Part shown: one piece after another, positions 2,579 to 60,530 of the stretch
How the letters are laid out: every line of letters starts with the position of its first letter
Numbering within the stretch: the stretch's first letter is position 1
NCBI GenBank assembly: GCA_963575745.1
Contig: CAUYUJ010000050.1
Coordinates: forward strand, 1 to 64,000
Length of the DNA: 64,000 bases
Origin: Prorocentrum cordatum
Lineage: Eukaryota
Direction of reading: 5' to 3'
Made by a program: the position numbers and the translations under genes
Notes under the pieces: generated by a model
Database searches by the model: none
What the model was told of the DNA's origin: nothing
The model's input: only the letters and a program-made list of their open reading frames with translations

Positions 2579-2600
2579 TCCGTAGCCATCTCGGATCAAG
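2579..2600 (+). other. Relic dinoflagellate spliced leader
   Basis: TCCGTAGCCATCTCGGATCAAG, 19/22 match to DinoSL; ATG follows at 2627. Confidence 0.8.
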
Positions 2601-2626
2601 GTATCGCCTGTGTTCTTGGATGGGTC

Positions 2627-2800: not shown

Positions 2801-3077
2801 GAACAGGGGGAAAAGTCGTATACTAAGCTAGCTTCCACAAAATGTTACCACAACAAGTCACTGTACCCATGCGCCAGTGTAGTAGCCAAGGTCGTCCGCA
2901 GGCCACGAAGTGAAGTGTCCGAACGTCATAGGGCGGGAAGCTGGGTGTGGGTGGTGGCGAAGAGTCGTTTGGAAACTTGGTAGAGCTTGAACCGGCCCCC
3001 CCACAAAGTGGGGGTATTGTCCGCCTCCTATGAAAACCCTGGCACTGGTGAGAACGGAGTGTCCCCAGTCTTAAATG

Positions 3078-3174
<97 letters not shown>

Positions 3175-31400: not shown

Positions 31401-34400
31401 TGTTGCTGTAAGGGGTCCCGCCATGCCCAGCATGGTGCCCAAAGTGGTGCCCAAAGCGCTTTTTGGAGTTGCGTTGTGCCCAAAGTTGGCCCGGATGCGA
31501 GGATGTTCCGCGCCGTTTGCCCGTTCTCACGTGGGTCGCATTTATGGGCACCGAGCTTTTTTGGGCGGTCCAACGTGGTTTTTTTGGGGTACATTTTTGG
31601 ACACGCGGCCGGCCAATTTCAGGCATCCATTCTGGGCACCGTACGGGCTCTGTTTTGAGCACACAGGGTCCATTCCGGGCACGTGTCCAGGTATCCGAAC
31701 GTTGCATTGCAAGATTCTTGTGTCGGTGCAGCGCTGTGGCGCGTCGTGCTGGCGCCGTGTCGCAACGGCTTCGCGTCGCAAGGACGGATCCCGAGGGGCC
31801 TTGAGAGAGTGCCTTGAAGGTATTGGGCGAACGAGAATAGAAAACCAGAAATAGATCGGGCAAACAAGGGAAGGGGCCACGAGGGTATCGGGCAAACAAG
31901 GAAGGCTATCGCGAAACACACCGCATGTGAACTGAATAACAGACGTGCGTTGTTGGGCACAGTTTGGGGCACAATTTGGGCAACGTGCAAGTCACCGTAA
32001 TGTCTTGGACCAGCCCTGCGGTGAGTCATGTCTTACAAATTTCTCACCGTCAATGACAAGGGCGACAGAGGCGAAGTGGGACACCTACAGCCACGGAGAC
32101 GCATGGACGTCGGTAAAATCCCACTGCTTTGTGCGCAGCTACAAAACATACCGTGTCCTTCTCGCAGGCATACAAGAATCCAGGCGCAAACAGGTACAGC
32201 AAAACGTAAAAGGCTTCATCACGTCACAATCAGCACATTAAAGTTCGTTCCTTCGTTTTCTCCTCCTCCTCCTCCTGGTTCTCCTCCTCCTTCTCCTCCT
32301 CCCTCCTCCCGCCCTCCTCCTCCTCCTCCTACTACTCCCTCGTTTCCTCCTCTCCTCCTCCTCCTCCTCCTCCTCCTCCTCCTCCTCCTCCTCCTCCTCC
32401 TCCTCCAGACTCCTCCTAACACACGCGCCCCAGGGCCCGCACCAGTCCGACATGCACGAGACACGAGAGCAGCTGCCCGGCGGCTGGTGGCTCTCGGCTG
32501 CACGTTCGAGCACGCACAGTCGCTGTACGCAGATATCCACAAGTGCTCGCAGACCATCCGCCGGCATCGGCGCAGTGAGTACAGGAGAAAGAGGGCCGCG
32601 TGGAGGGAGGATTTAAAAGACGCGCTGGATCGTCATGATTTCTCTCTCGCCTACCGACTGACCCGTCTCCTCTCGGGCAAGGGCCTCGGGGCCAAGAGGC
32701 GCAGGCTTTGGGCTCCCGGCCCCTCCGCGCTCGACCCGGGCGAATGGGCTGCGAAACTTTCCAAACCTGGCGCTGAAGGAGGGCATTCTGCTGTTCATAT
32801 TGATTTGCACGCTGTAGCTGGGCGCCGTCGGGTGTCTGAACCTCCGCCTTCCGAGCTGGAGGTCCAGGAGCTGACCGAGGCGCAGTTCAAAGGTACCCGC
32901 AGGGAGCTGTGGAAGAGCCCGCTGCGCAAGACCTGCCCCTGGTGGTCGGCTCCAGTGGCCTTGTGGCGCATGGCCACCGTGCCAGGTCGCTTTGAGCCTC
33001 TACGGCGCGCTGGTCTCGGAGCTGCCCCGCAAGAGCTACGAGCTGCTAAGTTCAACAGCTTGCGCTACCTTCTGCACAAGATCATGGTACGCACCAGGCT
33101 AGCACCGGCCTGCTGGCATGTGACGTCTGCGTTCACCGTTGCGAAGCCCAGTGGTGAGCCTCGCCTGCTCCACAATCTTGATGTTTACGGTGGCCGCTTC
33201 TACCGCTGGCTCTGGCAGGAGATCGGACATACCTTTGATCGCCGTTACGCGCACGGCTATTCGAAGGGGAAACGCCGAGAGGCAGCCATCATGACCGTGG
33301 AGCTTCTGAGGCACCGTATGGCGACAGCGGGCATTTCCTGCAATACCGACTTCTATGATCTCACGAACGCTTTCGCATGTTGCGAACACCGCGATCTTCA
33401 GCACTATCTTTGGGAGGACTGCCAAACACCGCAGCTTGCACGGGACTATCTGCAGCAACGTCTCGAATGCGCCACCATGTTTTTCGAGTTTCCCAACAGA
33501 CAGCTTCTATGCATGAGCCTGCGGCAAGGGGCGCTGCCAGGATGCACGATTTCATCGCAATGGTTTCTCGCGCCGTTCCACACTGTCTTGGACCTCGCGC
33601 TTGCTGGCACGCGGTCAACCGCAGTCACGGCCACGTGCCCCTGGCTTCACACTGCCATCGGTGACCATGCCCAAGGTTGCGAAGTGTCTTTGGCTAGCTA
33701 CGCAGACGATTCGCAGCGCACCTACCCCGTAACGAACCCTGTAGACGCCAACCGGAAAAAAGCCACGGCACGTACACCATCTACAAGCGGCATGCCGCAG
33801 CACGCAGCTACGCAGCCAACGATGGCAAGCTCGTGTCGCTGCCGCATTTCGTCGGGAAGAGGGCGGACGCGTACCAGCGGATCGTCCACCGCGTGCCTGG
33901 AATCTTGGCTGGTGCAGTTTCTGGCGCCGCACGTTATCTCGGCCCCCACTTGGCGTTTGACGGTTCTCTTGGAGTTGAAAGGGTTCGCAGGGTTGCTGCG
34001 GCTCGCGCTGCGTACGCCGCTTATGGCAAGTTTTGGCACGACAATGGCCCTCGCAGGTGGGCCCGCATATTGTTCCAGGGCTCCGTTACCAGCATGCTGA
34101 CCACGGGCCTCGCGGCTTTCGTGCCCTCGCAGGCGGATCTGAAAGTTCTTGATAGATGTAAAGAACAGCTCTTGCGGAAGGCTCTGCAGGGCCGCGCCCA
34201 TCAGGAGGCCGCGCTCACCGACGGTACTACAAAGCACACGTCGTGGTCCAACGAACGCGTCCGGCAGGGTATGCAATCTGCCAACATGGGCACACTGTTG
34301 CGAGTCTCCCGGTTGAGATGGTGGCAAGACATTGTATCGTCGCCCCGGCGTTACGCTCAATTTCTAATTTCCTTTTTTGGTCACTTGCCCTGGGGCGCGC

Positions 34401-37400
34401 CTTCCAATGCCCCCTGGCTTCCCGATGGGCGGCCTAGCACTCGGCCCCACAAGTGGTGGAGTCAGCTTCGCGCCGACCTGCTGGAGGCCGCCACCGTGGC
34501 GGACAGCGCCGGCCTCGAGCATGCTGCCGACGATCCGCGTCTGCTCTTCCTGGACGAGTACGTGAAGGATGCGTTCTGCAGGCTGGACATGGCCATCTTG
34601 ACAGCGCGGGAGTTGCACCATCGTGAGATTCCGCCCCCGCACGCCGCGGCGCCTCCGCTCGCCGAGGCTGCTGCGCCGGTTGCCCCAGGAGGCTGGCGCA
34701 CAGTGTACACCTGCACGATCGCCACGGACACCGGCGAGGAGTGCGGCCGCAGCTTCGAGACGGACCGGCAGTTGCGCGCCCACCAGACGGCTGCCAGAGG
34801 CGGTGGCCATGGGCGCACGCAGCTGGCGACAACGCTTGCCGTGGCCAATCGGTGTCCCCTATGCCTTGCGGTGCACAAGAGCCGGCATGTGACTCGTGCC
34901 CACGTGACGAAGAGTTTGCAAAGAGGTCGTTGTCTGAAGGAATGGGAAAAAGGCAGCCGCACCGAGACCGACACCACAACAAGTCCTCCGTACACGTGTG
35001 ATTTATGCGATGTCAGCTTCGACACGTGGCTCGCCTTTCACCATCACGCCTGGATGGCCCATTTGGGCGGCCTGGGTGATTTCTTGACCGATATGTGAAG
35101 GCGTCCTGGAGCGCGACGCGTCATTGGCCCGTTCATCTTTATATATATATATGGCTTAGGGCGGACATTGCAGCAGAGGTCAGAACAGGAGGGTTGCGAT
35201 AGTCGTCTTGACCCCTACGTGAATTACGACAGCATCCACATGATACGCTTCATGGCGCATTCGTATCTTCCACCTGCCTGGATTTGTTTTCTTCCAGCGC
35301 AGCCGTCTGGCCCGGCAGGTTGCCCTGGCACCTCGCACTGCTCCTCGGCGTTTCTGTCTGCCTGCCGCGCCGCCTTCCGAGCCATGGAGCAGTGGCGGCA
35401 GGCCCTTGGCGCAGCCGCTACCCCCGCCATCGAGCCCCCGGCCGGCAAGAAGGGGCGCCGCGGCCAGGAACGCTTGTATTGCGAGTTGATGAAGACAGCC
35501 GCCAAACTGAGCTTAAATAATGCCCAGGATGTGGCGCGCATCGCTGCCCTCGCGTACTTCTCCTACGACGTGCCCGAAGATGGAGAGATTGACAAGGCAG
35601 TCACCGGCGCAGCCCGCGCCCACAATGACAAGTACAAGGGGCAGTCCGGCCATCATGGCGGGTCGCCGGACGTCCACAGTTTCATTGCAATTTTGCTGGC
35701 GCTGCACGGCCACGGCGGCCCCGAGCACAAGGAAGAACATCGAGACCTTCATGGGGGGCTTCTCGCCGGAGAACCCCCACATTCAGCAAGTGGTCGGGCG
35801 TTGCGTGTGCCAGCAGGCCTTCAAGTCGGACCGCCGGAAGCTCTTCTTCAAGCTTCTCCGGGCCCCGGGGCTCACAGAAGCTGACAAGAACGTGCCCGAG
35901 GATACTGTCGACAAACTCTTGACCACGAATGGCGCTGTCCGCAAGCTCGGGCGCGCCCCCCGGGGCTCACTCGAGCGTCGGGCCCAGCAGCTGCTCGACC
36001 TGATCTCCCAGGGCAAGAGCGACGCCGACCTCGCCACCGTCGACGCCGGCAAGGGGGCCTTGACCGAGGAGTCGTGGTCATGTTGCTGCTCTCGTCGTCC
36101 TCCCCCTCCTCCTCCTCCTCCTCCTCCTCCTCCTCCTCCTCCTCCTCCTCCTCCTTTTTCCTCCTCCTCGGCCTCCGCGCGCCGTTGCGACAGGCCGCCG
36201 GGCGCCGTTGCGACAGAATTGCTGCAATTCCTGTCGCCGGGCGCCGTTCCATTTATTTTCCGTCGCAAGCTTCTGAGAGGGTGCAGCAGCTGCACCAGCA
36301 ACCTCCGGCAGGCAACGCCGAAATACACACGGAATGCGTATTCCGGGCATGGGCGCCGTCCGCGAGGGCTCGGCAGCCAGGGCCATCCAGTGTTGTTTTG
36401 TTCACGTGTATGTGGGGGCCCGCTTGGCTGTCTCGAGCCGCTCTCGTGGCTTCCGCTCTTGCCCCCCCCCCCCTCTTTGCCTCTCCTCTTCGCCTCCTCT
36501 CGTCGCCCCCTCTCTCTGGCAGGGGAAGAGGGTTAGCACTCGCGCTACGTGTCTCCTGAAGCGGAGACCTTTTCCGCCTGAGGTCCACTCCTTTTTCTGA
36601 GTCGTGCAGCAGTCGATGGATCTCGCCGAGCGGTTGCTGTCCTGTCCTGTGTCCTCCTCCTCCTCCTCCTCCTCCTCCTCCTCCTCCTCCCCCCTCCCTC
36701 CTCCTCCTCCTCCTCCTCCTCCTCCTCCCTCCTCTCTCCTCCTCCTCCCTCCTCCTCCCCCTCCTCCTCCCCCTCCTCCTCCCCCTCCTCCCCCTCCTCC
36801 CTCCCCCTCCTCCCCCCGCCCGCCGCAGGTGGACGCGGACCTGCTGTGCCTGCAGGCCGGGCCGACGGGACCTGCGCGCACACGCCGCCCCTGGCCGGGC
36901 CCACCCTTAGGGTCCGGGATCGGTGCGTACAGTCGGGGCGCTGAAGAAGGAATCCTTTTCGCTGGGGAGGGGCTCGGTGTTCCTTGATTGTTTCAAAGTT
37001 TGCCTCGGGTTTTCTTGGGGGGGTTCCGTAGGAGATCGCGGTTGAACTTATGGGAAAAGGGGCCTCGTTCCTTATTTAGGGTTCCTTAGGTCAACGCCTC
37101 GACTGTATGTATAGGGGGCCAGATGCGAACCCTACCCCTACCCTTTGTGGGCCCCGGAAACGGCAGGGCCGTTTTTTCACCGTTTCCCAAAAACTGCCCC
37201 TTGGAAATGGAAACGGCAAAAAAACGGCGACCGGAAACGGCAAAAAAACGGCTCCAGGTTTGGAACCGGAGCCGGGACCGGTCAAAAAACGGCGACGGAG
37301 CCGGTAAACAAACGGCGTCGGAATCGGCAACAAAAACGGCAAAACGGAAGCGGTAAAAAAACGGCCCTGTCGTTTCCAGGGCCCACTAAGCCCCTACCCC

Positions 37401-40400: not shown

Positions 40401-43400
40401 CCGTACCCGTTTCGGGCGTCCAAAACCGTGGCACGTCAGAGGCGACGATGGGGGCGAATAGCCCAGGGGGAAGCGATACCTGCATCCAGGGGCACCGATG
40501 ATCTATGTCTTTGGCGAGGCTCCCCGGCGAATACGTGTAATCGGAAGCTGGAACATATACATTACCAGTGGCGGGCTCTCTTTCAAGCCCAGGGCTTTTT
40601 GAGGGTCGGGGACAACGTCGGGGTGGTGTGGTGTATCCTTTTCCTTTATTTTCTTCGGGAAACAACGAACAATGTATACACCAGGACCCCGTATACACCA
40701 AGATCCGCGTCCTGTGCGAATTTCAGTGCAGGGCCGGAAAAAGCGTCGGTGTAGAGAGTTCGGTTCCCTATGTAATGCCCGCCCCTGGGCGATTCGCTCT
40801 TATCGTCGCCCCCGAGCACGGGAGCTCACCGCCAGGCTTGCGTCGGGCGTGTCCCTCTACAGGAGGAGTATTCAAAAATAGCAGAAAAAATAGTCTGGGC
40901 ACGATTTTTTGATTATTTCTGATTATTTTGGAATCTGTTTTTACCTAACAGCGAATACTGATAGGTTTCTAATAGGGTCAAAGAGCATCATGACTCCCCA
41001 GGGGGGTCTGGGCGGCATCCGGACAGGGATCCGCGGAAGTCGTTTCAAGCAAACGGTTACACACTTCGTGGTCTTCGAGGTCCCAGAACTCCATTCCCGG
41101 GACACATTTCTCAATGCCCGGAGCCAACTGTAGGCCACTTCGTGGTCTTCGAGTTCCCAGAACTCCATTCCTGGGCATGATTTGAATGCCCGGAGCCAAC
41201 TGTAGGCCACTTCGTGTTCTTCGAGTTTCCCAGAACTCCATTCCTGGGCATGATTTTGATGCCCGGAGCCAACTGTAGGCCACTTCGTGCTCTTCAAGTT
41301 CCCAGAACTCCATTCCTGGCATGATTTTGAATGCCCGGAGCCAACTGTAGGCCACTTCGTGTTCTTCTAGTTCCCAGAACTCCACTCCTGGGCCACATTT
41401 TGAATGCTGAGGCAGGCTGATGCTGCGGCCGAGGCAGGCTGAGGCTGAGGCAGGCTGAGGCTGAGGCCGAGGCTGAAGGCAGACTGAGGCTGAGGCTGAA
41501 GCAGGCTGAGGCTGAGGCTGAGGCTGAGGGAGGCTGAGGCTGAGGCAGGCTGAGGCTGAGGCTGAGGCAGGCTGAGGCTGAGGCTTCTGAGGACAGGCTG
41601 AGGCTAGAGGCAGGCTGAGGCTGAGGCCGGAGGCGGAGGCGGAATGCAGACTGCTGGCCGAGGCTGAAGCAGGCGAGGCTTTTTGAGGCTGAGCAGAGGC
41701 AGCTTGAGGCTGAGGCTGAGGCAGTGATGCTCAGGCAGGTGAGGCTGAGGCTGGGCTGATGCAGGGAGGCTGAGGCAGGCTGAGGGAGGCCGAGGTCTGA
41801 ATGCAGATGAGGCTGAAGCAGGCTGAGCTGAGGCTAGGCAGCTGAGGTGAGGCTGAGGGAGGCTGTATGCTGAGGCAGGCTGAGCTGAGGCTGAGGCTGA
41901 ATGCAGGCTGAGGCCTGAAGGCAGACTGAGCGCTGAGCTAGGCTGAAGGCAGACTGAGGCTGAGGCGAAGCAGGCTGAGGCGAGCAGAGGACAGGCTGAG
42001 GCTGAGGCCGTGGCAGGCTGATGCTGAGGCAAGCTGAGGCGGAGGCTGAGGCTGATGCAGGCTGAGGCTAAGGCTCATGCAGGCTGAGGCTGCGGCAGGC
42101 TGAGGCTGAGGCTGAGGCTGAAGGCAGACTGGGGCTGAGGCTGAAGCAGGCTGAGGCTGAGGCTGAGGCAGGCTGAGGCTGAGGCTGAGGCAGGCTGATG
42201 CTGAGGCAGGCTGAGGCTGAGGCTGAGGCTCATGCAGGCTGAGGCTGAGGCAGGCGGAGGCTGAGTCCGAGGCTGAAGGCAAACTGATGCTGAGGCTGAA
42301 GCAGCTGAGGCTGAGGCTGAGGCAGGCTGAGGCTGAGGCTGAAGCAGGCTGATGCTGAGGCAGGCTGAGGCTGGGGCTGAGGCTGATGCAGGCTGAGGCT
42401 GAGGCAGGCTGAGGCTGAGGCCGAGGCTGAAGGCAGACTGAGGCTGAGGCTGAAGCAGGCTGAGGCTGAGGCTGAGGCAGGCAGAGGCTGAGGCTGAGGC
42501 AGGCTGATGCTGAGGCAGGCTGAGGCTGAGGCTGAGGCTGATGCAGGCTGAGGCTGAGGCAGGCTGAGGCTGAGGCCGAGGCTGAAGGCAGACTGAGGCT
42601 GAGGCTGAAGCAGGCTGAGGCTGAGGCTGAGGCAGGCTGAGGCTGAGGCTGAGGCAGGCTGATGCTGATGGCAGGCTGAGGCTGAGGCTGAGGCTGATGC
42701 AGGCTGAGGCTGAGGCAGCAGGCTGAGGCTGAGGCCGAGGCTGAAGGCAGACTGAGGCTGAGGCAGGCTGAGGCTGAGGCTGAGGCAGGCTGAGGCTGAG
42801 GCAGGCTGAGGCTGAGGCTGAGGCAGGCTGAGGCTGAGGCAGGCTGAGGCTGAGGCTGAGGCTGAGGCAGGGTGAGGCTGAGGCAGGCTGAGGCTGAGGC
42901 CGAGGCTGAAGGCAGACTGAGGCTGAGGCTGAAGCAGGCTGAGGCTGAGGCTGAGGCAGGCTGAGGCTGAGGCTGAGGCAGGCTGAGGCTGAGGCAGGCT
43001 GAGGCTGAGGCTGTGACTGCGACTGCCGTTGCCACTGCGACTGTCATCGCGAATGCGACTACGACTGCGAGAACAGCAGAATTCTACAACTGGATTCTCA
43101 TCTGAATCTGAAGGGGAATGCTTCCAGATATGCTCCTACACATCGCTGTTAGGTTGCTTTGTCGGGATAATGCCTTTTTATTACGTTTCGTCCAAAATCG
43201 GCCTGTAGGGGGACATGCCCGACCTAAGGCCAAGGCCAGGCGGCGCGGGCATCTCTTTGGCTCCTCCGAGGCCGTCTTGAAGACGCCTTGTGCAGCTCGA
43301 AGAAGCAAAAGCGGCATGCGCAGAGTGCATCGGAGGTCCACGCGGATTTCCTGGATCGGCGTTCGACCCCCCTCCCGGCGGCGCCTCCGGCGCCGCCCCT

Positions 43401-50927: not shown

Positions 50928-50980
<53 letters not shown>

Positions 50981-51030
50981 CGAACGGTGACTAATCATTA
51001 TGATGATGATGCTGACGATGATGTTGATGT

Positions 51031-51073
<43 letters not shown>

Positions 51074-51497
51074 GATGGTTCTGATGCTGATGACGATGAT
51101 GATGGTGATGATGCTGATGATGATGCTGATACGGATGACATGACCTTGCGGATGATGATGTTGATGTTGATGATGATTATGATCATGTTCTGATGGTTAT
51201 GATTATGATGCTCAAGATGATACTGATCATGGTGATGGTGATGAAACTGTTGATGATGATGAGGGTGACGATGCTGAGTATGATGCTGTTGATGGTGATG
51301 GCTAGATGGTGGCGACGATGACGACGACTAAGATGATGAGGATGATGATGATGAGGAGGAGGAGGAGGAGGTTGATGATGATGAATATGATGATGATGGC
51401 GATGATGCTGTTGCTGGTGCTGATGCTGATCTTGTCGATGCTGGTGCTAATGCTGATGCTGATCATGATGATGAGGATGAGAAGAAGGAGCGGATGC

Positions 51498-51530
<33 letters not shown>

Positions 51531-51761
51531 CGATGATGATGCTGATGATGGTGATGATGATGAGGAGCAGGGCGACGACGACGACGATGCCGTTGATAAT
51601 GATGATGATGGTGGGGGCGACAATGATGATGCTGATGACGATGATGACAATGATTATGCTGCTGATGATGCTGATGCGAATGATGATGGAAACGACGATG
51701 ACGATCCTGATGTTGATAATGATGATGTTGATGATGGCGATGACGGTACTGTTGGTGATTC

Positions 51762-51801
<40 letters not shown>

Positions 51802-51839
51802 ACTGGTGATGGTAAGATTGATGATGATGATGATGTTGC

Positions 51840-51884
<45 letters not shown>

Positions 51885-51936
51885 CGTTGATGATGGTGAT
51901 GTTGCGGTTGTTGATGCTGATGTTGATGCTGCTGTT

Positions 51937-51967
<31 letters not shown>

Positions 51968-52151
51968 AGTGTGGTGCTGATGCTGCTGACGACGATGCTG
52001 ATGATGATGCTAATGGTGATGGTCATCGCGATACTGGTGTTGTCGATGATGCTGATGATGCTGCTGATCATGATGATGCAAATGATGATGCTGTGAGGGT
52101 GATCATGATGACAACGACGACAATGATGATGATGATGATGATGATGATGAC

Positions 52152-52206
<55 letters not shown>

Positions 52207-55200
52207 ATGATGACGAGGATGAGGATAAGGATGAGGATGAGGATGAGAGTGATGATGATTATGATGATGCTGATGATGTTGATGAAAAGCTGCTGCCGAT
52301 GACGATCGCCCATTGCGCTTCTGCTGCGCCCAGGGCCCCTGGGGATGTGCTCTCCTGGGGGAGGTCCCCGCGAGTCTTGGTGTCCTGGGCTGCAATTCGT
52401 CGGGGTGCTGGCCATCTACCTGGCGTCTGTCGAGGCCTGAAGCGGGCCCGCCGACCGCCCCCGCCGCCCGCTGTCCGACTCGGACGGCGGCGCCAAGCCT
52501 CGTGCGTCGTGCCTCCTCCTCTTCCTCCTCCTCATCCTCCTCCTCTCCTCGTCGTCGTCCTCCTCCTCCTCCTCCTCCTCTTCCGCCTGCTCATCCTCCT
52601 CCGCCTCCTTTTCCTCTCCTCGTCCTCCTCCTCCTCCTCTTCTTCCCCCTCCTCTTCCTCCTCCCTCCTCCTCCTCCTCCTCCTCCTCTCCTCCTCCTCC
52701 TCCTCCTCCTCCTCCTCCTCCTCTCCTCTCCTCTCCCCACTCCCCTCCTTCTCCTCCTCTTCCTCCCTCCTCCTCCCTCCTCCTCCTCCTCCTCCTCCTC
52801 CTCCTCCTCCTCCTCTCCTCCCTCCTCCTCCTCCTCCTCCTCCTCCTCATCATCATCATCATCATCATCATCCATCCCTTCTCCTTATAGATATCTCCTC
52901 CCTGTCACACCCTGAGGCCAGTTTTCAGGGTGGGCCGGGCGTTTCGCCTGAGATTTCCTCACCATTTTGACTCTGAAGCTTACAAAATGACAACAGCTTC
53001 ATAGACGGAGGGCGGGTCGTTTTCAACATGTGGTTTTCGCCTTAGCGCCGCGCGCATTCGCTTTAATCAAATTGCAAGAGTTTTCAATGTGGGTTTCGCC
53101 ATAGCGCCGCGCACAACATTCGGTTTTTCAAACTGAAGAGTTTCGCGAATTGAGGGCGGGCCGTTTTCAAAATGTGGTTCTCGCCTTAGCGCCGCGCCCA
53201 TTCGTTTTTGAATAATTTGCAAGAGCTTTATGGTTTGAGGGCGGGTGGTTATCAACATGTAGCTCTCGCCTTAGCGCCGCGCACATTCGTTTGGACTAAT
53301 TGCAAGAGTTTCACGGATTGAAGGGTGGTTCCTTTTCAACATGTGGCTCTCGCTTTAGCGCCCCGCACATACTTCTAAAACATTTGCAATAATTTCACGG
53401 ATTGATGGTGTTTCCTTTCCAAATTAGGCTCTCGCCTTCGCGCCGCGCACATTCGTTTACAACATTTGCAAGAGTTTCACAGATTCCCGTGATCAGCGTA
53501 CTAGAAATGGTGTTTTGGAAGGGTTCAGGATTGTGCGGGTGCAACAGTTATGTTGATTCGCAGTGTTGAAGTCCCACACATGGCGCTCTGGTAAGATTCC
53601 GGATCGTCAAGGCGCAGCAGTCAGGTTGATACGTGGCGTTGAAATCCCGAGCACGATGTTTTGGCATGTTTCAGGATCTTCAAACGGTTTTCTTCCAACG
53701 AGGCAGTTCCCACAATGGAACTGAACCGTTCTAGGGGGCCCATGAACAGGGAGGTTGGAGGGAGGGTTAATTCCAACATCGTTGATGACTCTTGGTTTTA
53801 CATGGTCTTCCTTTCCCTCCTCCTCCTTCTCCTCTCCTCCTCTTCCCCCTCCTCCTCCTCTTCTCTCTCCTTCTCCTCTCTCCGCCTCCTTTACCTCTCC
53901 TCTTCGTCGGTCGTCGTCGTCCTCCTCTCCTCCTCCTCCTCCTCCTCCTCCTCCTCCTCCTCCTCCTCCTCCTCCTCCTCCTCGTCGCCCTCTTCGTCCT
54001 CCTTCTGCTCCTGCTCCTTCTCCTTTCCCTCCCCCAGGCCCCAGGCCAGCCGCCTGCGCTCCGGTGTGCGCAGCCTCGGGGCCTTCTTCATCGGGTCGGT
54101 TCCGGGCCACGCGCTCGGCAGAGCCGCACAACCACCAGTCGGGATGGTGATTCGCAGCGAGTACCTGGCGCCCTGAGCCGCCTAGGCCAATGCTGTGTCA
54201 CGTTGTGGGCTTCGGCTCCAGCGTCGGGTGGCGGCGGTCTGGGTGGGGCTGCGCGGAGCCGCCGCAGTCCAGCCCAGCCCAGCCCAGCCCAGCCCAGCCC
54301 AGCCCAACCCTCCTCCTCTGGATCATGATGATGATGATGATCATGATGATGATGATGATGATGATGATGCTGGTGGTGTTGTTGATGATGATGGTGATTA
54401 TGATGACGATGATGATGATGATGATGATGATCATGATGATGATGATGATGATGATGTTGATGATGATAATGGTGATGATGGTGGTGGTGATGGTGATGAT
54501 GTTGTTGATGATGATGTTGATAATGATGATGGTGGTGGTGATGTTGTCATTGGTGATGATGATCGTGCTGCTTCTGCTGCTTCTGCTGCTTATGATGATG
54601 ATGATGGCGATGCTGATGTTGGTGCTGCTGGTGCTGACGAGTATGATGATGATGGCGATGTTGCTGACGATGGTGACGCTAGTGATGATACTGATGATGA
54701 TGATGTTGATGGTGATGATGTTGATATTTCTGGTGATGGTGATGATGACGGCGAAGCTGATGGTGATGATGCTGGTGGCGATGCTGCTGCTGATGGGGAC
54801 GTGGAAGGTATTGATGATGATGTACTGATGATGATGTTGTTGATGTTGATGTTGATGTTGATGATGTTGCTGCGTCTGGTGACGACGATGAGGATGGCGA
54901 TGGTACTGGTCATGCTTATGATGCCGATATGGTGGTGATGGTGGTGTTGATGGTGATAATGAGGATGATGATAAGGATGACGATGATGCTGGCGATGACG
55001 ATGATGGTGTTTATGATGTTGTTGATGGTAATACTGATGATGATTGCGGTGACGATGACAGTGATACTGATGATGACGACGACGAGTACGACGACGATGC
55101 TGATGCTGCCGATGATGCTGATCAGGATGCTGATGATGCTGATGATGGTGATACTGATTGTGATCATGATGAAGGTGATGCTGACGATGATTCTGATGAC

Positions 55201-55821
55201 GGTGATGCTGACGATGCTGACGATGACCATGACGATGGCGATGCTGACGATGATGCTGACCATGGTGGTGTTTATGATGATGTTGACCAGGATGCGGATG
55301 ACGATGATGAAGATAATGATGAGGCAGCGGATGCGGGTGATGATGAAGATGAGGGTACGGATGATGCTGAGGATGGTGATGTTGTTGGTGATGGTGATGA
55401 TGATGATGGCACTGCAAAGTATGATGATGATCCTGATGATGACATTGTTGATGATGTGGATTGGTGATGACGGTGATTTTGATTATGCTGCTGATGATGG
55501 TGGTGATAGTGGTGGTGATGATGATGCTGTTGATGATGATTCTGATGGTAGTGATCATGATGATGATGTTGATGATGCTGCTGATGCTGCTGCTGATGTT
55601 GATGATGATTATGATGCTGCTGCTGATGATGATGATTATGCTGATACCGATGATGATGGTTATGATGATGACGATGATGATGATGATGCTGATGCTGCTG
55701 ATGATGCTGCTGCTGATGATGACGATTATGCTGCTGCTGATGATGACGATGATGATGCTGATGCCGATGATGATGGTTATGATGATGGTTATGATGATGA
55801 TGATGCTGCTGATGATGATGC

Positions 55822-55866
<45 letters not shown>

Positions 55867-57906
55867 CGATGATGGTGATGGTGGTGCTGCTGCTGAAGAT
55901 GATGACGGGGAGGAGGATGACGACGACGAGGAGGAGAAGGAGGAGGAGGAGGAGAAGGAGGACGAGGATAGTGCTGGACAGGGAGGGGATGAGGAGGAGG
56001 AGGAGGAGGAGGAGGAGGAGGAGGAGGAGAAGGAGGAGGAGGAGGAGGAGGAGAAGAAGGAGGAGGAGGAGGAGGAGGGGGAGGGGGAAGATAACTGGCT
56101 GGGCGAAGGAGAAGCAGGAGGAGGCGAGGGAGGGGGACGGACGAAGCAAGGAAGGCAGGAAGAGAGAGGGAGCAGGACCGGGAGGATAGCCCTTCTTCTC
56201 TTGCCTGTCCGATTCTGTAATGTCCGCCATTCCGTTGACACAGTCCTTCCCCTCCTTCTGGCGGCCCAGAGCGACGGCTGCGCGCTGCTCGTGCGCAAGT
56301 CGAAGTTTGAGCTGGTGTCGCGCGAGGACATCGAGTCCTACTCCGAAGCAGGCGAGAGGGGAGGATCGGCATGACAGACTGCGGTTGGCTGAGATCGAGG
56401 AGGCGCAAGCATGGACTACGGCGCGTGCATCCAGCGGCGGCCACGAGACAAACGGGTAGAACGCGAACGGGTCTTCAGAGGTTCTTCGGCCGCGCTGGGG
56501 CTCTCGGTGGGGCCCCGCCCTGGGCCCCCCCATGGGACCGCCAGGCAGCGACTCGGGATGAAGAGCTGGTCCCGTGGAAGGCCCCCCAGGGGTCCAGGCC
56601 CCATGGGACCGTCAGGCAGCGAGTCGGGATGAGGATCGGGGGCGGCAAAGAGGGGTGTGATGACGAGGTGGGGGGGACATCATGGCAGGGGCCACGATAT
56701 CTCCCCAGATGTTTCGTGGCGCCTCTGCTCATGCCATGACGTCCCCGCCCCACCCCTGGGCCGCGCACGTGCCGCTGGCCATGATTTGCGCCCCCCCCTC
56801 CTGGACGCCCCCGCTCTTGGCCGCCCCCGAGAGGAGCTGGTCCCGGGGAAGGCCCCTCGGGGGTCCGGGACCCGTTTCTCTCGGGACCCATTCCATCTCT
56901 TTTATATGGAAAGTCGGGGAGGTTGGGCCGACCGAGTGCCAGCAGGATCCCAGAGGGCCACGGCCACGGGCGGGAGGAGCATGAAACGGATGATGAGGAG
57001 GGGAGAAGCAGGGGGAGGAGGAGGAGGAGGAGGAGGAGGAGGAGGAGGAGGAGGAGGAGGAGGAGGAGGAGGAGCAGGAGGAGGAGGAGGAGGAGGAGGA
57101 GGAGGAAGGCGGGATCAAAAAGGCGGATGCGGGTAGGGAGGGATGGGGTATGGGAGAGTAGTGGAGAGGAGGGGAGGCGAGGAGAGAGGAGCGGAGAAGA
57201 GAGGAGGGGAGAGCGGATCTGGAATGAGGGACGGAAGGGGAATGAAGGGAGGGAGCTAGGGGAATGTAGGTAGTGATGGAGATAGGGATGAAGGAATCAG
57301 GGATGGAAAGAAAATGAGAGTAAGGGAGAAGGAGAGAGACGGAGTGGCATGGACATGTGTATCTGTATACATATACATACATACATCGCGGGCAGATGGA
57401 GAGAGGAAAATACGGACAGGAAGAGTCGCAGGGAGCCTGATCATCAGGGAAAAGGAAAGGGAGAAGACATAGCGAATCTATGCTTGTATGGTTATATAGA
57501 TGACTTGCTGCATGCACGTGATAAGAGGTAATGTGTACAAGTGGGAATGGACGATATTATAGGCTACGAGGAGGGACGATGATATTACACATAAATGTAG
57601 GGAGATAGTGTTACCGTGAGAGAGGGGGGGAGGGAGGGGGAGATGGATAAGAGACAGAGAGAGGGAGAGAGAAAGAGCGAGAGAGAGAGAGAGCGAGAGA
57701 CAAACATATGAGAGGGAGGGCGAGGGAGGGGAGATAATTATGAGGAGACTGATAGCACGATGAGGATAACGCGGGAGGAGAAGGAGGCGCGCGCAATGCT
57801 CTCGGCCGCGGCAGTCGCCACCAACCCGCGCACCAAGCCCGTCCTGGAGCAGCTGCGGAAGGCGATGCCGCAGCTGGAGGAGGAAGTGCTGCCGCACCTG
57901 AAGACG
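7434..57906 (+). CDS. PDE12: PDE12/CCR4/nocturnin-family EEP nuclease (deadenylase/2',5'-phosphodiesterase-like), partial multi-exon gene; exons ~7434-7470, ~9613-9656, 16950-16977, 36829-36855, 38185-38232 (or -38265), 56270-~56326, ~57787-57906
   Basis: Exons in order read YTRTESSQKALY / PYCAPEHMCFEYR / R-HLLMREILE / VDADLLCLQ / ECPVHFFRHGLSPLLE(AGYRGRVAPGQ) / SDGCALLVRKSKFELVSRE / ARAMLSAAAVATNPRTKPVLEQLRKAMPQLEEEVLPHLK. This is collinear with the PDE12 segment as recalled from memory (YAQTEFSRTVLYPYCAPYALELDYRQNLIQKELTGYNADVICLQE...EGLATFYRKSKF). Three junctions are phase-compatible with AG|G acceptors and GT/GC donors. Confidence 0.8.
9613..9656 (+). CDS. PDE12-like exon (PYCAPEHMCFEYR); 5' boundary uncertain (in-frame AG|G at 9561/9562)
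   Basis: PYCAP...xYR motif; phase-2 GT donor at 9657. Confidence 0.75.
9769..9790 (+). other. Relic dinoflagellate spliced leader
   Basis: TCCGTAGCCATCCTGGCTCAGG, 19/22 match to DinoSL. Confidence 0.8.
9836..11100 (+). pseudogene. SL-headed retrocopy/retroelement 5' ORF, unknown protein (EYVRRQDEFWKSRCESIGQIFGYPELVDRLLAVAPVLALQLGKSQELKRNVAIHA...)
   Basis: Follows relic SL; long open complex frame interrupted by a GGA tract; ends in a CCT tract. Confidence 0.5.
11490..11678. mobile_element. MITE with TIR SAGTATCGTTTAACCGATCCCCATCCCC (copies 18024-18209, 22188-22378)
   Basis: ~28-bp inverted termini; three similar copies. Confidence 0.85.
12690..12885. mobile_element. Foldback MITE with ~60-bp TIR GGGGAACAAGAAGTGGC... 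(copy 18215-18405 flanked by TTA/TAA; PIF/Harbinger-like)
   Basis: Long inverted arms; GGG termini and TWA flanks at 18212-18214/18406-18408. Confidence 0.8.
15116..16385 (-). mobile_element. 5'-truncated CRE-like (R2-group) non-LTR retrotransposon: post-RT region, CCHC knuckle and restriction-like endonuclease; two frameshifts (~16155, ~15903)
   Basis: Joined frames give VLLRTFAQGAVTHHLRA, ATLRLVDGGCAL..APAAYAASW, CNDPLDARGWHACSCPVGG..RHD, KLDV..VYVDWSV, EKRERY, PLVFESGG, LQTGNAEML-stop: motifs typical of RLE-bearing CRE elements; ACC-rich 3' tail to ~14735. Confidence 0.85.
16950..16977 (+). CDS. PDE12-like 28-nt micro-exon (R/HLLMREILE)
   Basis: aag|G acceptor, GAG|gc donor; phase 2 in and phase 0 out, exactly bridging the neighbouring exons. 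Confidence 0.8.
19051..19200 (+). CDS. Probable first coding exon of WSRELN-repeat protein gene (MAWSREQNAKGAELL...GAGWSRELNAKG); 3' boundary uncertain
   Basis: GCAGCCATGG start context, upstream cag|g at 19036; two WSRE(Q/L)N repeats. Confidence 0.55.
19413..19672. mobile_element. MITE with TIR CCCTGACTCCGGATCCGCCCTACTTTG and internal AGTAGGGCGGAAAT repeats (copies 22745-22921, ~44625-44886)
   Basis: Inverted termini and shared internal motif. Confidence 0.75.
19963..20245. mobile_element. MITE with TA flanks, TIR CACAGCCGTGAC..., internal 19-bp perfect inverted repeat
   Basis: TA|CACAGCCGTGACAAAAGTT ... AACTTTCGTCACGGCGATG|TA; cggagtagtttccgatccc / gggatcggaaactactccg. Confidence 0.7.
21500..21634 (+). 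CDS. Internal exon of WSRELN-repeat gene (…GAGWSRGLNAEGVDVLAEGRLMQHYDE); 5' boundary uncertain
   Basis: Repeat motif; ends GAG|gc and splices in frame to 23459, rebuilding one repeat unit. Confidence 0.65.
23035..23274. mobile_element. MITE with ~29-bp TIR GGGCCCTGGAAAYGRCAGGGCCGTTTTTT (opposite-strand copy 37149-37384)
   Basis: Inverted termini; ccgtttt-rich interior. Confidence 0.8.
23459..24673 (+). CDS. Terminal exon of tandem-repeat protein (31-aa WSRELNARAAEVASPVMQHYDAITRSPPGAT units); function unknown
   Basis: Polypyrimidine tttttttctgtgcag|G acceptor; 404-codon open frame; four near-identical 93-bp units (23486-23857) plus ~7 protein-level diverged units; TGA stop. Confidence 0.85.
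   Translation, partial: ATMVPPGVAWSRELNARAAEVASPVMQHYDAITRSPPGATWSRDLNARAAEVASPVMQHYDAITRSPPGATWSRDLNARAAEVASPVMQHYDAITRSPPGATWSRDLNARAAEVASPVMQHYDAITRSPPGATWSRDLNARALETMLAKTMQGHSNEVATPPPGSVWSRELNAKGAEARSTSSRGGWDGAWSRELNRKGMEMEKDQAGSTIMRKHHDAITAVPAGTAWSRELNRKAMSIEAANSMDATTAVPAGSCWSKDLDSSAMEAQLEKHCDAITAAQTVTWSKELNQKAADSEAAWSIQKHYDAITEAAARGAWSRELNLQAVEAWDNQKLCEARPIRPQTTPELKPHGRERQFSDASTAAPMSRQGTERALSWAEDDLDDDDWCHEEPRALERCARIPE
26569..26746 (+). mobile_element. Tc1/mariner-type MITE, CAGTCGGGGCG family (copy 36930-37105)
   Basis: TA|C(A/C)GTCGGGGC ... GCCCCGACTG|TA, TA duplication in both copies. Confidence 0.8.
27963..28127 (+). mobile_element. MITE-like repeat with imperfect AAAAGGTACC arms (copies ~6104-6255 reverse, ~17011-17332, partial ~21660-21750)
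   Basis: Shared core gctggattcgcctcgaaatcctgg. Confidence 0.7.
29938..30110. mobile_element. MITE with ~38-bp TIR ACCACCCACCAAACCACCCCAACCCAACCCGAAG (copy 30962-31136)
   Basis: Inverted arms; two highly similar copies 1 kb apart. Confidence 0.85.
32410..35098 (+). mobile_element. 5'-truncated non-LTR retrotransposon ORF: reverse transcriptase plus C-terminal C2H2 zinc fingers; one frameshift at ~33756-33761
   Basis: RT motifs KPSGEPRLL, AHGYSKGKRRE, FYDLTNAF (33351), QGALPGCTISS, YADD (33699-33710), then in -1 frame ANDGK, RYLGPHL, CTI..CGRSF..LRAH, CPLC..H, CDLC..HAWMAH; no endonuclease domain visible. Confidence 0.9.
35384..36075 (+). CDS. Unknown ~230-aa protein downstream of the RT ORF (frameshift ~35731; no stop seen before the CCT tract)
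   Basis: GCCATGG start; MEQWRQ..AKLSLNNAQDVARI..GSPDVHSF.. joined to KNIETFM..GRCVCQQAF..GAVRKLGRAPRGSLERRAQQLL; strong GC3 codon bias. Confidence 0.7.
36829..36855 (+). CDS. PDE12-like 27-nt micro-exon (VDADLLCLQ)
   Basis: cag|G acceptor, CAG|gc donor; EEP DxxCLQ(E) motif. Confidence 0.85.
37113..37451. mobile_element. MITE with TIR AGGGRGCCAGATGCGAACCCTACCCC, containing nested MITE 37149-37384
   Basis: ~30-bp inverted termini at 37113 and 37451. Confidence 0.75.
38185..38265 (+). CDS. PDE12-like exon (ECPVHFFRHGLSPLLE[AGYRGRVAPGQ]); donor at 38233 or 38266
   Basis: tgcag|G acceptor supplies the metal-binding E of the LQE motif; GYxG motif. Confidence 0.75.
41060..41405. repeat. ~72-bp tandem repeat (~4.5 copies)
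   Basis: gagccaactgtaggccacttcgtg at 41121, 41193, 41266, 41338. Confidence 0.9.
41407..43012. repeat. 1.6-kb GCTGAG/GCAG minisatellite
   Basis: Direct reading. Confidence 0.95.
45550..46438 (+). mobile_element. Non-autonomous piggyBac-like element with ~77-bp internal tandem repeats (inverted copy ~52872-53766)
   Basis: CCCTCCC..CTCC / GGAGG..GGGAGGG ends; second copy ends AGGG|TTAA at 53766; repeats cgaatgtgcgcggcgctawggcgagagccacatttt. Confidence 0.6.
46555..46805. repeat. 12-bp CTCACTATCGAT and 11-bp GGGACACCGAC minisatellites
   Basis: Direct reading. Confidence 0.9.
49445..50841. mobile_element. Non-autonomous TIR element with inverted subterminal repeats and central GGGACAGT minisatellite
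   Basis: gtcactaccggttcgaaccc (left) versus several ggttcgaaccggtagtgac (right); cgccggcaaacga / tcgtttgccggcg. Confidence 0.7.
50865..52300. repeat. Degenerate (GAT)n tract
   Basis: Direct reading. Confidence 0.95.
52872..53766 (-). mobile_element. Second copy of piggyBac-like non-autonomous element
   Basis: Reverse-complement similarity to 45550-46438; TTAA at 53767-53770. Confidence 0.6.
54320..55910. repeat. Degenerate (GAT)n tract
   Basis: Direct reading. Confidence 0.95.
56270..56326 (+). CDS. PDE12-like exon (SDGCALLVRKSKFELVSRE); 3' boundary uncertain
   Basis: CCR4-family DGCAxxxRxxxF motif; pyrimidine tract and AG at 56268-56269. Confidence 0.8.
57787..57906 (+). CDS. Probable PDE12-like exon (ARAMLSAAAVATNPRTKPVLEQLRKAMPQLEEEVLPHLK); boundaries uncertain
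   Basis: Coding-like GC3-rich island after a purine tract; resembles the helical segment after RKSKF in PDE12. Confidence 0.55.
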
Positions 57907-59890: not shown

Positions 59891-60464
59891 CACCCGACAC
59901 CTCCTTCAGAGCCGGCGGCTCTCGGCTATCCTCGCGCCATCTCAGCCCGGTTTGGGCCCGGCCCTGGCCTCGTCTGGGCCGCGCCACCCGCCCTGGGACG
60001 GCCTCCTGGCCGACGGAGCGTTTCTTGCGCTCGTGCGCTCGTGGCTACTCTATAGCTCAGCCCACTTTGAGCCCCAAGCGGCCTCAGAGGCTCCGACTGC
60101 TTCCCCAGGGGCAGTTTCTCGTCCCGGATCCGTGTGTTCATGGCCGTGGGTACCGGAAGCGGACCCTGGGGGCCGAGGTCGAGGACACACCTACGGCCGA
60201 AAGCAGAACATCGTCGGAGGTCCGGCCTGCTTTCGCTCGCTCGTTCGCGCGCAGCCGCCTTCTGGCTCAGCGCACTCTGATCTGCACCGCCCAAGCATAC
60301 CATTGCCGTGCATCCTGCACGCCAGGGCCGACCGCCGGGGCAGAGAGCACACCGGAAGACGCGCAGCCAAGACCACTCTTCAGCACCCTCCACAGAAGAG
60401 GAGTGAGCTGCCCACGTCCTCGTCCGTCTCCTCCTCCTCCTCCTCCTCCTCCTCCTCCTTCTCC

Positions 60465-60530
60465 TCCGTAACCATTTGGCTCAAGCCATTCTGGCTCAAA
60501 CCATTGTGGCTCAAGCCATTTTGGCTCAAG
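60465..60530 (+). other. Tandem of four relic spliced leaders
   Basis: TCCGTAACCATTTGGCTCAAG + CCATTCTGGCTCAAA + CCATTGTGGCTCAAG + CCATTTTGGCTCAAG. Confidence 0.95.

What the first reader, a model, noticed from the sequence alone, without database searches (positions are those of the whole stretch)
32410..36100. Non-LTR element with a second ORF downstream of RT and its own acceptor-like site
Seen: the RT plus C2H2 ORF stops at 35098. It is followed by a (TA)n run (~35140-35152), a pyrimidine tract ending in AG (tttgttttcttccag, AG at 35296-35297), a GCCATGG start at 35384 and a ~230-aa same-strand ORF ending ...RKLGRAPRGSLERRAQQLL. The RT and ORF together are bounded by CCT tracts. Known: canonical LINEs put the accessory ORF1 upstream of RT, and dinoflagellate mRNAs are matured by SL trans-splicing. 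Inference: the element may carry a 3' accessory gene released as its own mRNA by trans-splicing at 35297, an inverted LINE architecture with an uncharacterised protein. This is the best candidate for an undescribed system here.
Basis: partly seen in the sequence, partly recalled or inferred. Interest (0 to 1): 0.85.

Follow-up and report, generated by a model that had tools for sequence, protein, structure and literature searches.

The report
Retroelement with a gene behind its RT
A dead copy of a dinoflagellate LINE-like jumping gene carries, behind its reverse transcriptase, a second gene for a conserved protein of unknown kind, an order of genes that recurs in a distant relative and is unusual for this class of element.

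Summary
However, neither reading frame is intact. The RT is split at an A-run (33756-33761). The "230-aa ORF" is two frames joined at an extra G near 35731, with no family-typical stop. CCT tracts occur about 27 times in the window, so "bounded by CCT" says little.

The main idea holds. A second copy from Prorocentrum cordatum (P0001) has RT and small ORF in the same order. A metagenome contig (L001) is only 31-36% identical in both parts. It still has an intact RT-3xC2H2 ORF, a stop, a 130-nt spacer and an intact small ORF.

The small ORF belongs to a family of about 210-250-aa proteins (26 further clusters). Its start Met is conserved. It has no Pfam match. The fold model is confident (pLDDT 89) and has no structural match.

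The RT is LINE-like by motifs only. No search confirms this statistically.

Trans-splicing at 35297 is untested. One contig of a run guessed to be RNA starts at 35302. No spliced leader was seen.

A head-to-tail arrangement, with the ORF being the ORF1 of a next copy, is not excluded.

Verdict: a new variant of a known kind, of moderate to high interest. This window's copy is non-functional.

The parts
32260..32406 (+). CCT-type microsatellite abutting the 5' end of the recognisable element. It is one of about 27 such arrays in the window.
32421..33757 (+). RT, N-terminal part (frame 0). It holds the linker before the RT and the RT motifs, including YADD at 33699-33710. There is no start codon and no endonuclease domain, so the copy is 5'-truncated.
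   Evidence: It is 33% identical to the L001 RT over 353 aa, E 2e-54, and 97% identical to P0001. Pfam finds nothing at E<=1.
33756..33761 (+). A6 run where the RT reading frame switches from frame 0 to frame 2. The paralogue P0001 reads through without a shift.
   Evidence: No run covers this place, so an assembly error is not excluded.
33758..35098 (+). RT, C-terminal part (frame 2). It holds a thumb-like region and three C2H2-like fingers (about 34706-34786, 34853-34903 and 34991-35062). The TGA stop is at 35096-35098.
   Evidence: zf-C2H2 families, all below Pfam's cut-offs. It is 36% identical to L001 over 410 aa including the fingers, E 3e-67.
35099..35383 (+). Spacer of 285 nt. It is open in the frame of both neighbours. 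It holds (TA)6.5 at 35140-35152, a pyrimidine tract plus AG at 35283-35297, and a second AG at 35301-35302.
   Evidence: No unusual RNA fold (z 0.17). No Rfam family. An X1 contig spans 35168-35359.
35384..35731 (+). Downstream ORF, N-terminal half (frame 2). It holds the conserved start Met, a basic patch and the SGHxxGxPD motif.
   Evidence: 27 proteins at E<=0.001; alignment; 31% identical to L001, E 1e-13.
35731..35732 (+). Extra G in a GG pair that breaks the downstream ORF. It is absent from P0001 and from the X2 and X4 contigs, and present in an X1 contig.
35733..36062 (+). Downstream ORF, C-terminal half (frame 0), holding the APRGSLERRAQ motif. Homology to the family ends near 36030. 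There is no in-frame stop before 36536.
   Evidence: 31% identical to L001, E 6e-13.
36098..36169 (+). TCC/CCT microsatellite directly behind the downstream ORF. It may be a 3' tail or simply one of the window's many arrays.

Best explanation
Window 32421-36062 is a dead copy of a LINE-like (non-LTR-type) retroelement of a dinoflagellate, Prorocentrum cordatum or a close relative. The copy is 5'-truncated and frameshifted once in each gene.

The family's conserved build is:
- one long ORF with the RT followed by three C2H2-like zinc fingers;
- a stop;
- a short non-coding spacer (130-285 nt);
- a separate ORF of about 205-230 codons with its own conserved start Met.

The small ORF is an integral part of the element that is inherited with the RT (shown). 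It encodes a compact alpha/beta protein with a short basic N-terminal patch and two conserved loops (SGHxxGxPD and APRGSLER). It belongs to no described family (shown).

Inferred, not shown: the protein serves the element's own RNP, by RNA binding or chaperoning or by nuclear import. That would take the place ORF1 proteins hold in canonical LINEs.

Also inferred: it is translated from its own AUG, either on a processed (possibly SL-trans-spliced) mRNA or by re-initiation on the two-gene RNA.
For: 1. Linkage. The RT-fingers ORF and the small ORF are adjacent, on the same strand and in the same order in 3 of 3 loci with readable flanks: the window, P0001 and L001.
2. Co-divergence. L001 compared with the window is 33% and 36% identical in the RT (E 2e-54, 3e-67). 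It is 31% and 31% identical in the small ORF (E 1e-13, 6e-13).
3. Intact genes. In L001 both genes are intact: 789 codons open to the contig's start, and 205 codons from ATG to stop.
4. The stop after finger 3 falls at the equivalent place in the window and in L001.
5. A real protein family. There are 26 further clusters at E<=0.001, 110-320 aa long. Both window halves align collinearly with them. The start Met sits at the same column in 16 of 26 representatives, in the window and in L001.
6. AlphaFold2 gives a confident model: pLDDT 89.4, pTM 0.77.
7. RT-like motifs are present, including YADD in the window and FADD in L001. Pfam RVT_1 gives a weak hit at the right place in L001 (E 0.042).
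8. There are no LTRs or other flanking repeats except the microsatellites.
Against: - There are effectively only two independent observations. The window and P0001 are close copies and may stem from one duplication.
- No copy shows the element's 5' part, its 3' terminus, a tail or target-site duplications. The gene order of a full-length element is therefore not known.
- A head-to-tail pair (RT of one copy, ORF1 of the next) would look the same.
- The RT call rests on motifs read by eye. Pfam RVT_1 is below its cut-off (14 bits against 29.6) and is absent for the window. Sequence and profile searches of the PDB found no RT. The RT fold prediction failed at pLDDT 33.
- No endonuclease was seen.
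- Between close copies the small ORF shows no purifying selection. Of 24 visible single-base differences to the X4 contig, 2 are synonymous against 5.3 expected, P 0.06. It is also less conserved than the RT between the window and P0001: 88-91% against 96-97% aa identity.
- The function of the protein is pure inference.
Confidence: 0.62

Rival explanations
1. Canonical gene order in head-to-tail arrays. The small ORF is the ORF1 of a next copy that lies directly behind the 3' end of the previous copy. The (TA) run at 35140-35152 would be the first copy's tail.
For: - LINE accessory genes normally lie upstream of the RT. For dinoflagellates see SymbioLINE in PMC5890265 (passages read).
- A simple (TA)6.5 run sits 42 nt behind the RT stop.
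- All copies at hand lack their 5' part, so the canonical order cannot be excluded.
Against: - Target-primed insertion truncates 5' ends, not 3' ends. Yet in the window the supposed next copy would stop right after its ORF1. No RT follows (only self-hits) and no Pfam domain lies in the flanking ORFs.
- In L001 the 310 nt behind the small ORF show no clear start of a long ORF.
- The L001 spacer is only 130 nt and has no simple-repeat tail.
- An X1 contig runs on from 35168 to 35359, past the (TA) run.
Confidence: 0.15
2. One polyprotein. The small ORF is a C-terminal domain of the RT protein, reached by stop-codon readthrough or frameshifting, and is not a separate gene.
For: - In the window the RT C part and the small ORF's first half share a frame. 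They are separated by a single TGA and 95 open codons.
- In L001 the small ORF's frame (+1 relative to the RT) has no stop anywhere upstream: 0 stops against 28.8 expected.
Against: - The two lineages would need different recoding events: same frame in the window, +1 in L001.
- The start Met is conserved in 16 of 26 representatives plus the window and L001.
- An open 95-codon spacer is expected by chance in roughly 5% of cases at this base composition (my estimate from the composition).
- The window's RT shows no lack of +1 stops: 11 and 10 against 10.4 and 11.3 expected.
Confidence: 0.1
3. The 3' gene is cut out of the element's transcript as its own mRNA by spliced-leader trans-splicing at the AG of 35296-35297, or at the AG of 35301-35302. 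This concerns expression only and is compatible with the best explanation.
For: - The genome uses spliced leaders. Four tandem relict leader copies lie at 60471-60530.
- A site with at least 12 of 13 pyrimidines followed by AG is uncommon, at 0.28 per kb. This is the only one inside the element.
- An 828-nt contig (depth 16.5) of run X4 starts at 35302 and covers the whole small ORF. That run gave only 18-36-nt scraps on the RT.
Against: - X4's RNA label is a guess, and a contig cannot show an RNA's 5' end.
- The contig carries no leader sequence. It has GTG in place of the ATG and a further 1-nt gap at 36011.
- The L001 spacer has no comparable pyrimidine tract.
- No leader relic lies near 35298.
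- There are 15 AGs in the spacer.
Confidence: 0.25
4. The small ORF is a host gene, or an independent mobile unit, that merely lies next to this RT copy, for example picked up once by 3' transduction.
For: - Most family members in the protein library are stand-alone gene calls of 110-320 aa whose surroundings cannot be seen.
- Two divergent members (P0019, P0027) have long lysine-rich N-terminal extensions, as a cellular gene might.
Against: - The same adjacency with equal divergence of both parts is seen in L001.
- Stand-alone gene calls are what a gene caller would give for a two-ORF element anyway.
Confidence: 0.06

Closest known systems
Canonical two-ORF LINEs (ORF1 then ORF2 with endonuclease and RT)
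   Same: RT motifs of the non-LTR type read by eye (YADD/FADD box and following motifs). No LTRs. A 5'-truncated copy. Two ORFs on one strand with a short spacer.
   Different: The accessory ORF lies behind the RT, not in front. Its protein matches no Pfam family, so none of the known ORF1 domains was detected. No endonuclease is seen in the parts at hand. The RT is too divergent for Pfam or PDB sequence searches.
L1Tc/ingi elements of trypanosomes
   Same: C2H2-type cysteine motifs at the 3' end of the element behind the RT. In L1Tc they have nucleic-acid chaperone activity (PMC2805920, abstract read). The host also uses spliced leaders (my knowledge).
   Different: L1Tc has no further ORF behind the fingers. 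An RNase H domain was not detected here by Pfam. Relatedness was not tested because no phylogeny was possible.
SymbioLINE-Dnmt elements of Symbiodinium
   Same: Dinoflagellate LINE-type elements that carry an unusual accessory gene (PMC5890265, passages read).
   Different: There the extra gene is a DNA methyltransferase and lies in ORF1, upstream of the RT. Here the gene lies downstream and is of unknown kind.
ORF3-bearing LTR retrotransposons and Athena/Terminon Penelope-like elements of bdelloid rotifers
   Same: Extra ORFs behind the polymerase gene. These are family-specific and are expressed from separate spliced messages (PMC5408684, abstract and passages read).
   Different: A different class of retroelement. 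The ORF3 types there (env-like, GDSL esterase, DEDDy exonuclease) are unrelated to this protein, which has no Pfam match.

Membership tests
Non-LTR (LINE) retrotransposon | Reverse transcriptase of the non-LTR type | tested here: inconclusive
   Motifs read by eye are present (YADD 33699-33710; FADD in L001). Pfam RVT_1 gives only E 0.042 at 14 bits against a cut-off of 29.6 for L001, and nothing for the window. The PDB searches gave no RT. The fold prediction failed. No phylogeny was possible.
Non-LTR (LINE) retrotransposon | Endonuclease (APE-type at the N-terminus or restriction-like behind the RT) | tested here: inconclusive
   Pfam detects none in the window's or L001's RT ORFs or in the ORFs upstream. 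Both copies lack their 5' part, where an APE domain would lie.
Non-LTR (LINE) retrotransposon | No long terminal repeats | tested here: met
   There are no direct repeats around 31500-37000 other than CCT-type microsatellites and short chance pairs. Self-comparison gives only the self-hit.
Non-LTR (LINE) retrotransposon | Defined 3' end with a tail (poly-A or simple repeat) and target-site duplication | tested here: inconclusive
   A CCT-type array follows the small ORF at 36098 and another precedes the element. Such arrays are everywhere in the window, at about 27. No target duplication was found. L001 ends 310 nt behind the ORF without a tail.
Canonical LINE gene order (ORF1 upstream of RT) | Accessory ORF in front of the RT ORF | not testable with these tools
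   All three loci lack the 5' part. No genome is held for the window. The look-up of encoding contigs is closed.
SL-trans-spliced dinoflagellate mRNA | Spliced leader joined to the first base behind an AG acceptor in RNA reads | not testable with these tools
   Only contigs were on hand, and none carries a leader. The X4 contig starts at 35302. No RNA holder is on record.
Retroposed gene with relict spliced leader | Leader relic in the DNA directly upstream of the ORF | tested here: not met
   Of the 9 matches to the leader motif with up to 3 mismatches, none lies in 31-37 kb. The four tandem ones are at 60471-60530.
L1Tc/ingi clade | RT phylogeny within the clade; RNase H domain; C-terminal C2H2 motifs | tested here: inconclusive
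   C2H2-like fingers are present, below Pfam's cut-offs in the window and at E 3.9e-5 in L001. Pfam detects no RNase H. Phylogeny was not done.

The most novel reading that the evidence does not exclude
This is an undescribed clade of dinoflagellate non-LTR retroelements with truly inverted gene order. Its 3' gene, for a protein with a new fold, is matured as its own spliced-leader mRNA at the acceptor near 35297-35302. In a sister lineage (L001) the 3' gene's reading frame is kept free of stops through the whole overlapping RT gene. That would imply dual coding or a frame-switching way of translating the second gene.
Probability: 0.2. Interest if true: 0.85.

Novelty: new variant of a known kind. 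Interest (0 to 1): 0.62.

Why it matters
- LINE-type elements are defined by a very stable build, with the accessory protein in front of the RT. A family that keeps its accessory gene behind the RT across deep divergence raises two questions. How is a second cistron translated, and how is the RNA's 3' end recognised when a gene sits there?
- In dinoflagellates, spliced-leader trans-splicing offers an obvious but untested way out. Such an element would be a compact natural test case for processing of multi-gene transcripts in these organisms.
- The 3' gene defines a protein family that is invisible to Pfam. It has at least 27 clusters at 50% identity, and its confidently predicted fold has no match among solved structures.
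- The RT also escapes standard profile searches. Elements of this kind are therefore probably under-annotated in the huge, repeat-rich dinoflagellate genomes and end up as 'unnamed protein' gene models such as P0001.

Tried and rejected
- **Word-indexed protein searches.** Searches with both halves of the small ORF gave no hit. The full HMMER search later found the family.
- **Genome and cluster look-ups.** No genome is held for the window.
- **Sequencing runs.** No RNA holder is listed. All 7 rows hold only small shares, 0.06-0.10. Depth across contigs was not used to rank RT against ORF, as the tool forbids it.
- **Fold of the small protein.** Foldseek against the PDB gave a best E of 0.026, on about 80 residues against a ferredoxin-like S6 permutant. 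VIA-align wide gave a best Z of 7.2 on helix pairs, which is within noise. BFVD gave a best E of 0.027. No match was accepted.
- **ESM Atlas.** It does not hold P0002 or P0021, and it was busy once.
- **RT fold.** pLDDT was 33, so the model is unusable and was not searched.
- **Self-association of the small protein.** No verdict was returned (score 0.00).
- **N-terminal extensions.** The N-terminal extensions of P0007 and P0023 looked to me like remnants of finger 3 fused to the ORF. BLASTP gives nothing significant, with best E values above 0.09, so I dropped this.
- **Further loci.**
  - The viral contigs gave no locus.
  - A degenerate DNA pattern gave one contig (L002). It is a GC-rich phage-like contig where the motif falls in a wrong frame of a large gene, so it is a chance hit.
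  - The prokaryote genome contigs gave none.
- **Spacer and RNA families.** The spacer RNA fold is not unusual (z 0.17). Rfam finds no family in the window.
- **Flanking ORFs.** There are no Pfam domains in the flanking or other long ORFs of the window apart from two low-complexity hits below the cut-off.
- **Earlier findings of the scan.** Nothing was returned.
- **Literature.** Four full-text searches turned up no paper describing a dinoflagellate LINE with a gene behind the RT. This holds for that library and those terms only.

Full report
**What is in the sequence**

- the TGA stop at 35096-35098 that closes the RT/zinc-finger frame;
- the (TA)6.5 run at 35140-35152;
- a pyrimidine tract ending in AG at 35296-35297, with a second AG at 35301-35302;
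- an ATG at 35384 in a GCCATGG context;
- CCT-type arrays on both sides, at 32260-32406 and 36098-36169.

Two things differ from the description.

First, the RT is in two frames. The N part (32421-33757, with YADD at 33699-33710) and the C part with the fingers (33758-35098) switch at the A6 run 33756-33761.

Second, the "~230-aa ORF" is not one ORF. The frame opened by the ATG stops at 35884 after 166 codons. The quoted C-terminal peptide lies in another frame (35517-36536).

The CCT boundary is weak evidence. By my count the window holds 27 CCT/GGA-type arrays, about one per 2.4 kb. No other copy of the element lies in the window.

**Organism and neighbourhood**

The window is 61% G+C. It holds four tandem relict spliced-leader copies at 60471-60530, the mark of a dinoflagellate retrogene.

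The only close protein relative of the RT carries the source name "unnamed protein product, partial [Prorocentrum cordatum]" (P0001).

Long ORFs elsewhere in the window have no Pfam domains. No Rfam family is present.

**A second close copy**

P0001 is a 693-aa gene model that strings together pieces of the same kind of locus in the same order. Its identity to the window is:

| Window segment | Part | aa identity |
|---|---|---|
| 32868-33416 | RT | 97% |
| 33758-34180 | RT | 96% |
| 34490-34801 | before and including finger 1 | about 94% (my count on the alignment) |
| 35384-35731 | small ORF, first half | 88% |
| 35721-36074 | small ORF, second half | 91% |

P0001 reads straight through both places where the window is frameshifted.

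Contigs of public runs say the same for the small ORF. One base at 35731 is missing in an X2 contig and in an 828-nt X4 contig. An X1 contig (35708-35929, no differences) keeps it. So the extra base belongs to this copy and is not an assembler's slip. X1 may, however, be the sample the window came from.

The RT frameshift is covered by no run.

Contigs about 85% alike to the window also exist in X1 and X2. The ORF is therefore multi-copy.

**The small ORF is a real protein family**

Word-indexed searches found nothing. The exhaustive HMMER search with the first half (35384-35731) found 27 proteins at E<=0.001. These are P0001 and 26 cluster representatives, 29-43% identical and 110-320 aa long.

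Both halves of the window's ORF align collinearly with them. The shared features are:
- an N-terminal M-x-x-W;
- a short basic patch;
- KLSLKNAQ;
- a loop SGHxEGxPD, in which H, G and P are nearly invariant;
- hPPK;
- KKLFFKL;
- a loop G-x-APRGSLERRAQ close to the C-terminus.

The start Met sits in the same column in 16 of the 26 representatives. In 12 it is the first residue. In 4 it is an internal Met behind an extension. It is also in that column in the window and in L001. This argues for a separate translation start.

None of the 28 aligned sequences has a credible Pfam match (best E 0.012).

AlphaFold2 on P0002 with this alignment gives a confident model (pLDDT 89.4, pTM 0.77). It is a four-stranded sheet with helices, clasped by a long N-terminal and a long C-terminal helix.

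Foldseek against the PDB and BFVD and an exhaustive VIA-align search gave nothing above noise.

**The decisive locus**

A scan of metagenome contigs with the family alignment returned one contig, L001 (3430 nt). Its layout:

| L001 coordinates | Feature |
|---|---|
| 2-2371 | ORF open to the contig's start; intact RT plus three C2H2-like fingers |
| 2369-2371 | stop |
| 130 nt | spacer |
| 2502-3119 | intact small ORF starting MEAW...; the representative P0025 matches it closely apart from a later start and one residue |
| 310 nt | further sequence with no clear coding |

Against the window:

| Part | Identity | E-value |
|---|---|---|
| RT, N part | 33% | 2e-54 |
| RT, C part, collinear through all three fingers | 36% | 3e-67 |
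| Small ORF, first half | 31% | 1e-13 |
| Small ORF, second half | 31% | 6e-13 |

The order, the strand and the position of the stop after finger 3 are the same. Both genes have diverged equally and both are intact. This is what is expected if the two genes have travelled together as one element for a long time. It is hard to square with a chance neighbour.

All 3 of 3 loci whose flanks I could read show the linkage. The window and P0001 may be one duplication, so the independent count is two.

**What kind of element**

The RT shows the boxes of non-LTR elements when read by eye. My naming of these boxes is recalled and comes from no tool. The window has:
- a motif with D-F-Y-D-L-T-N-A-F;
- R-Q-G;
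- Y-A-D-D;
- R-Y-L-G;
- further on, R-L-R-W-W and G-R-P...W.

L001 has the matching residues.

Statistical support is thin:
- Pfam RVT_1 gives E 0.042, below its cut-off, and only for L001.
- Pfam gives nothing for the window.
- No RT appears among PDB sequences, with the single sequence or with a profile.
- The fold prediction failed at pLDDT 33.

There are no LTRs and no endonuclease in the parts at hand. The window's copy starts in the linker that precedes the RT, so it is 5'-truncated.

I therefore call it LINE-like and leave the clade open.

**How the second gene might be expressed**

Nothing here shows it.
- The genome uses spliced leaders.
- A site with at least 12 of 13 pyrimidines before AG is uncommon, at 18 on the + strand of 64 kb. 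It is the only one inside the element.
- The X4 contig that covers the whole small ORF begins at 35302, just behind the two AGs. That run gave only 18-36-nt scraps on the RT.

Points against:
- X4's RNA label is a guess, and contigs cannot show RNA ends.
- No leader is on the contig.
- That copy has GTG for the ATG and another 1-nt gap at 36011.
- L001 has no comparable tract.
- The spacer has 15 AGs.

Recoding is a rival:
- In the window the RT C part and the small ORF share a frame across a single TGA and 95 open codons.
- In L001 the small ORF is in the +1 frame.
- The conserved Met speaks for a separate start.

**Selection**

Between the window and the X4 contig, 24 of that contig's 30 differences are visible within the ORF. 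Of these, 2 are synonymous taken singly, against 5.3 expected for the same mutation spectrum (P 0.06).

The small ORF is also less conserved than the RT between the window and P0001.

So close copies decay without constraint, as dead copies of a mobile element do. Constraint shows only at the level of the family: intact members, conserved motifs and a shared fold.

**The main rival**

A head-to-tail pair of canonical elements, with the RT end of one and the ORF1 of the next, would give the same picture. All copies lack their 5' parts, so this cannot be excluded.

Points against it:
- In the window nothing RT-like follows the small ORF, and target-primed insertion does not truncate 3' ends.
- In L001 the spacer is 130 nt without a tail, and the 310 nt behind the ORF open no clear long ORF.

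I put this rival at 0.15.

**Comparison with what is known**

- Canonical LINEs and the dinoflagellate SymbioLINE-Dnmt elements carry the accessory gene upstream (PMC5890265, passages read).
- L1Tc of Trypanosoma cruzi has C2H2 motifs with chaperone activity at its 3' end, but no further ORF (PMC2805920, abstract read).
- Extra ORFs behind the polymerase, expressed from separate spliced messages, are known in LTR retrotransposons and in Athena/Terminon elements of rotifers (PMC5408684, abstract and passages read).
- Four full-text searches found no description of a dinoflagellate LINE with a gene behind the RT.

**Verdict**

The finding is a new variant of a known kind with an undescribed protein family. 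Interest 0.62.

Noticed in passing
L001:2-3119 (+): In the distant relative, the reading frame of the small ORF (+1 relative to the RT) has no stop codon across the whole 789-codon RT gene. Shuffling codon order gives 28.8 stops expected, with a minimum of 16 in 2000 shuffles. None of the 83 codons ending in TG is followed by a codon starting with A. None of the 12 codons ending in TA is followed by A or G. The +2 frame has 26 stops. The window's RT shows no such effect. The +1 translation has no Pfam match. This suggests dual coding or a frame-switching way of reaching the second gene. It remains unexplained.
   Followed up: partly
window 60417-60530 (+): Four tandem relict spliced-leader copies lie directly behind a CCT array. 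This is the signature of a repeatedly retroposed dinoflagellate gene. No clear ORF or Pfam domain was found behind them.
   Followed up: partly
whole window: By my count there are about 27 CCT/GGA-type microsatellite arrays, together about 5.5 kb or 8.5% of the window. They lie with CCT on the + strand in 1-37 kb and 52-62 kb, and mostly with GGA in 39-57 kb. The strand blocks may follow gene or repeat orientation.
   Followed up: no
P0010 (C-terminal 60 residues) and window 36098-36169: A family member only about 31% identical to the window's ORF also runs into serine/leucine/proline-rich low-complexity sequence shortly after its normal end. The window's ORF runs into (TCC)n in the same way. 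The family's 3' tail might be a CCT-type repeat. This is a lead only.
   Followed up: no
window 35384-36074 compared with 32868-34801: Between the window and the paralogue P0001, amino-acid divergence rises along the element: 2.7% and 4.3% in the RT, about 6% around finger 1, and 9-12% in the small ORF. Gene conversion of the 5' part, or faster change of the small ORF, could explain it.
   Followed up: no
window 41406-43013, 50928-52285, 54321-55905: Long degenerate tandem arrays are present: a GCTGAG-type hexamer array of 1.6 kb, and TGA- and GAT-type triplet arrays of 1.4-1.6 kb.
   Followed up: no
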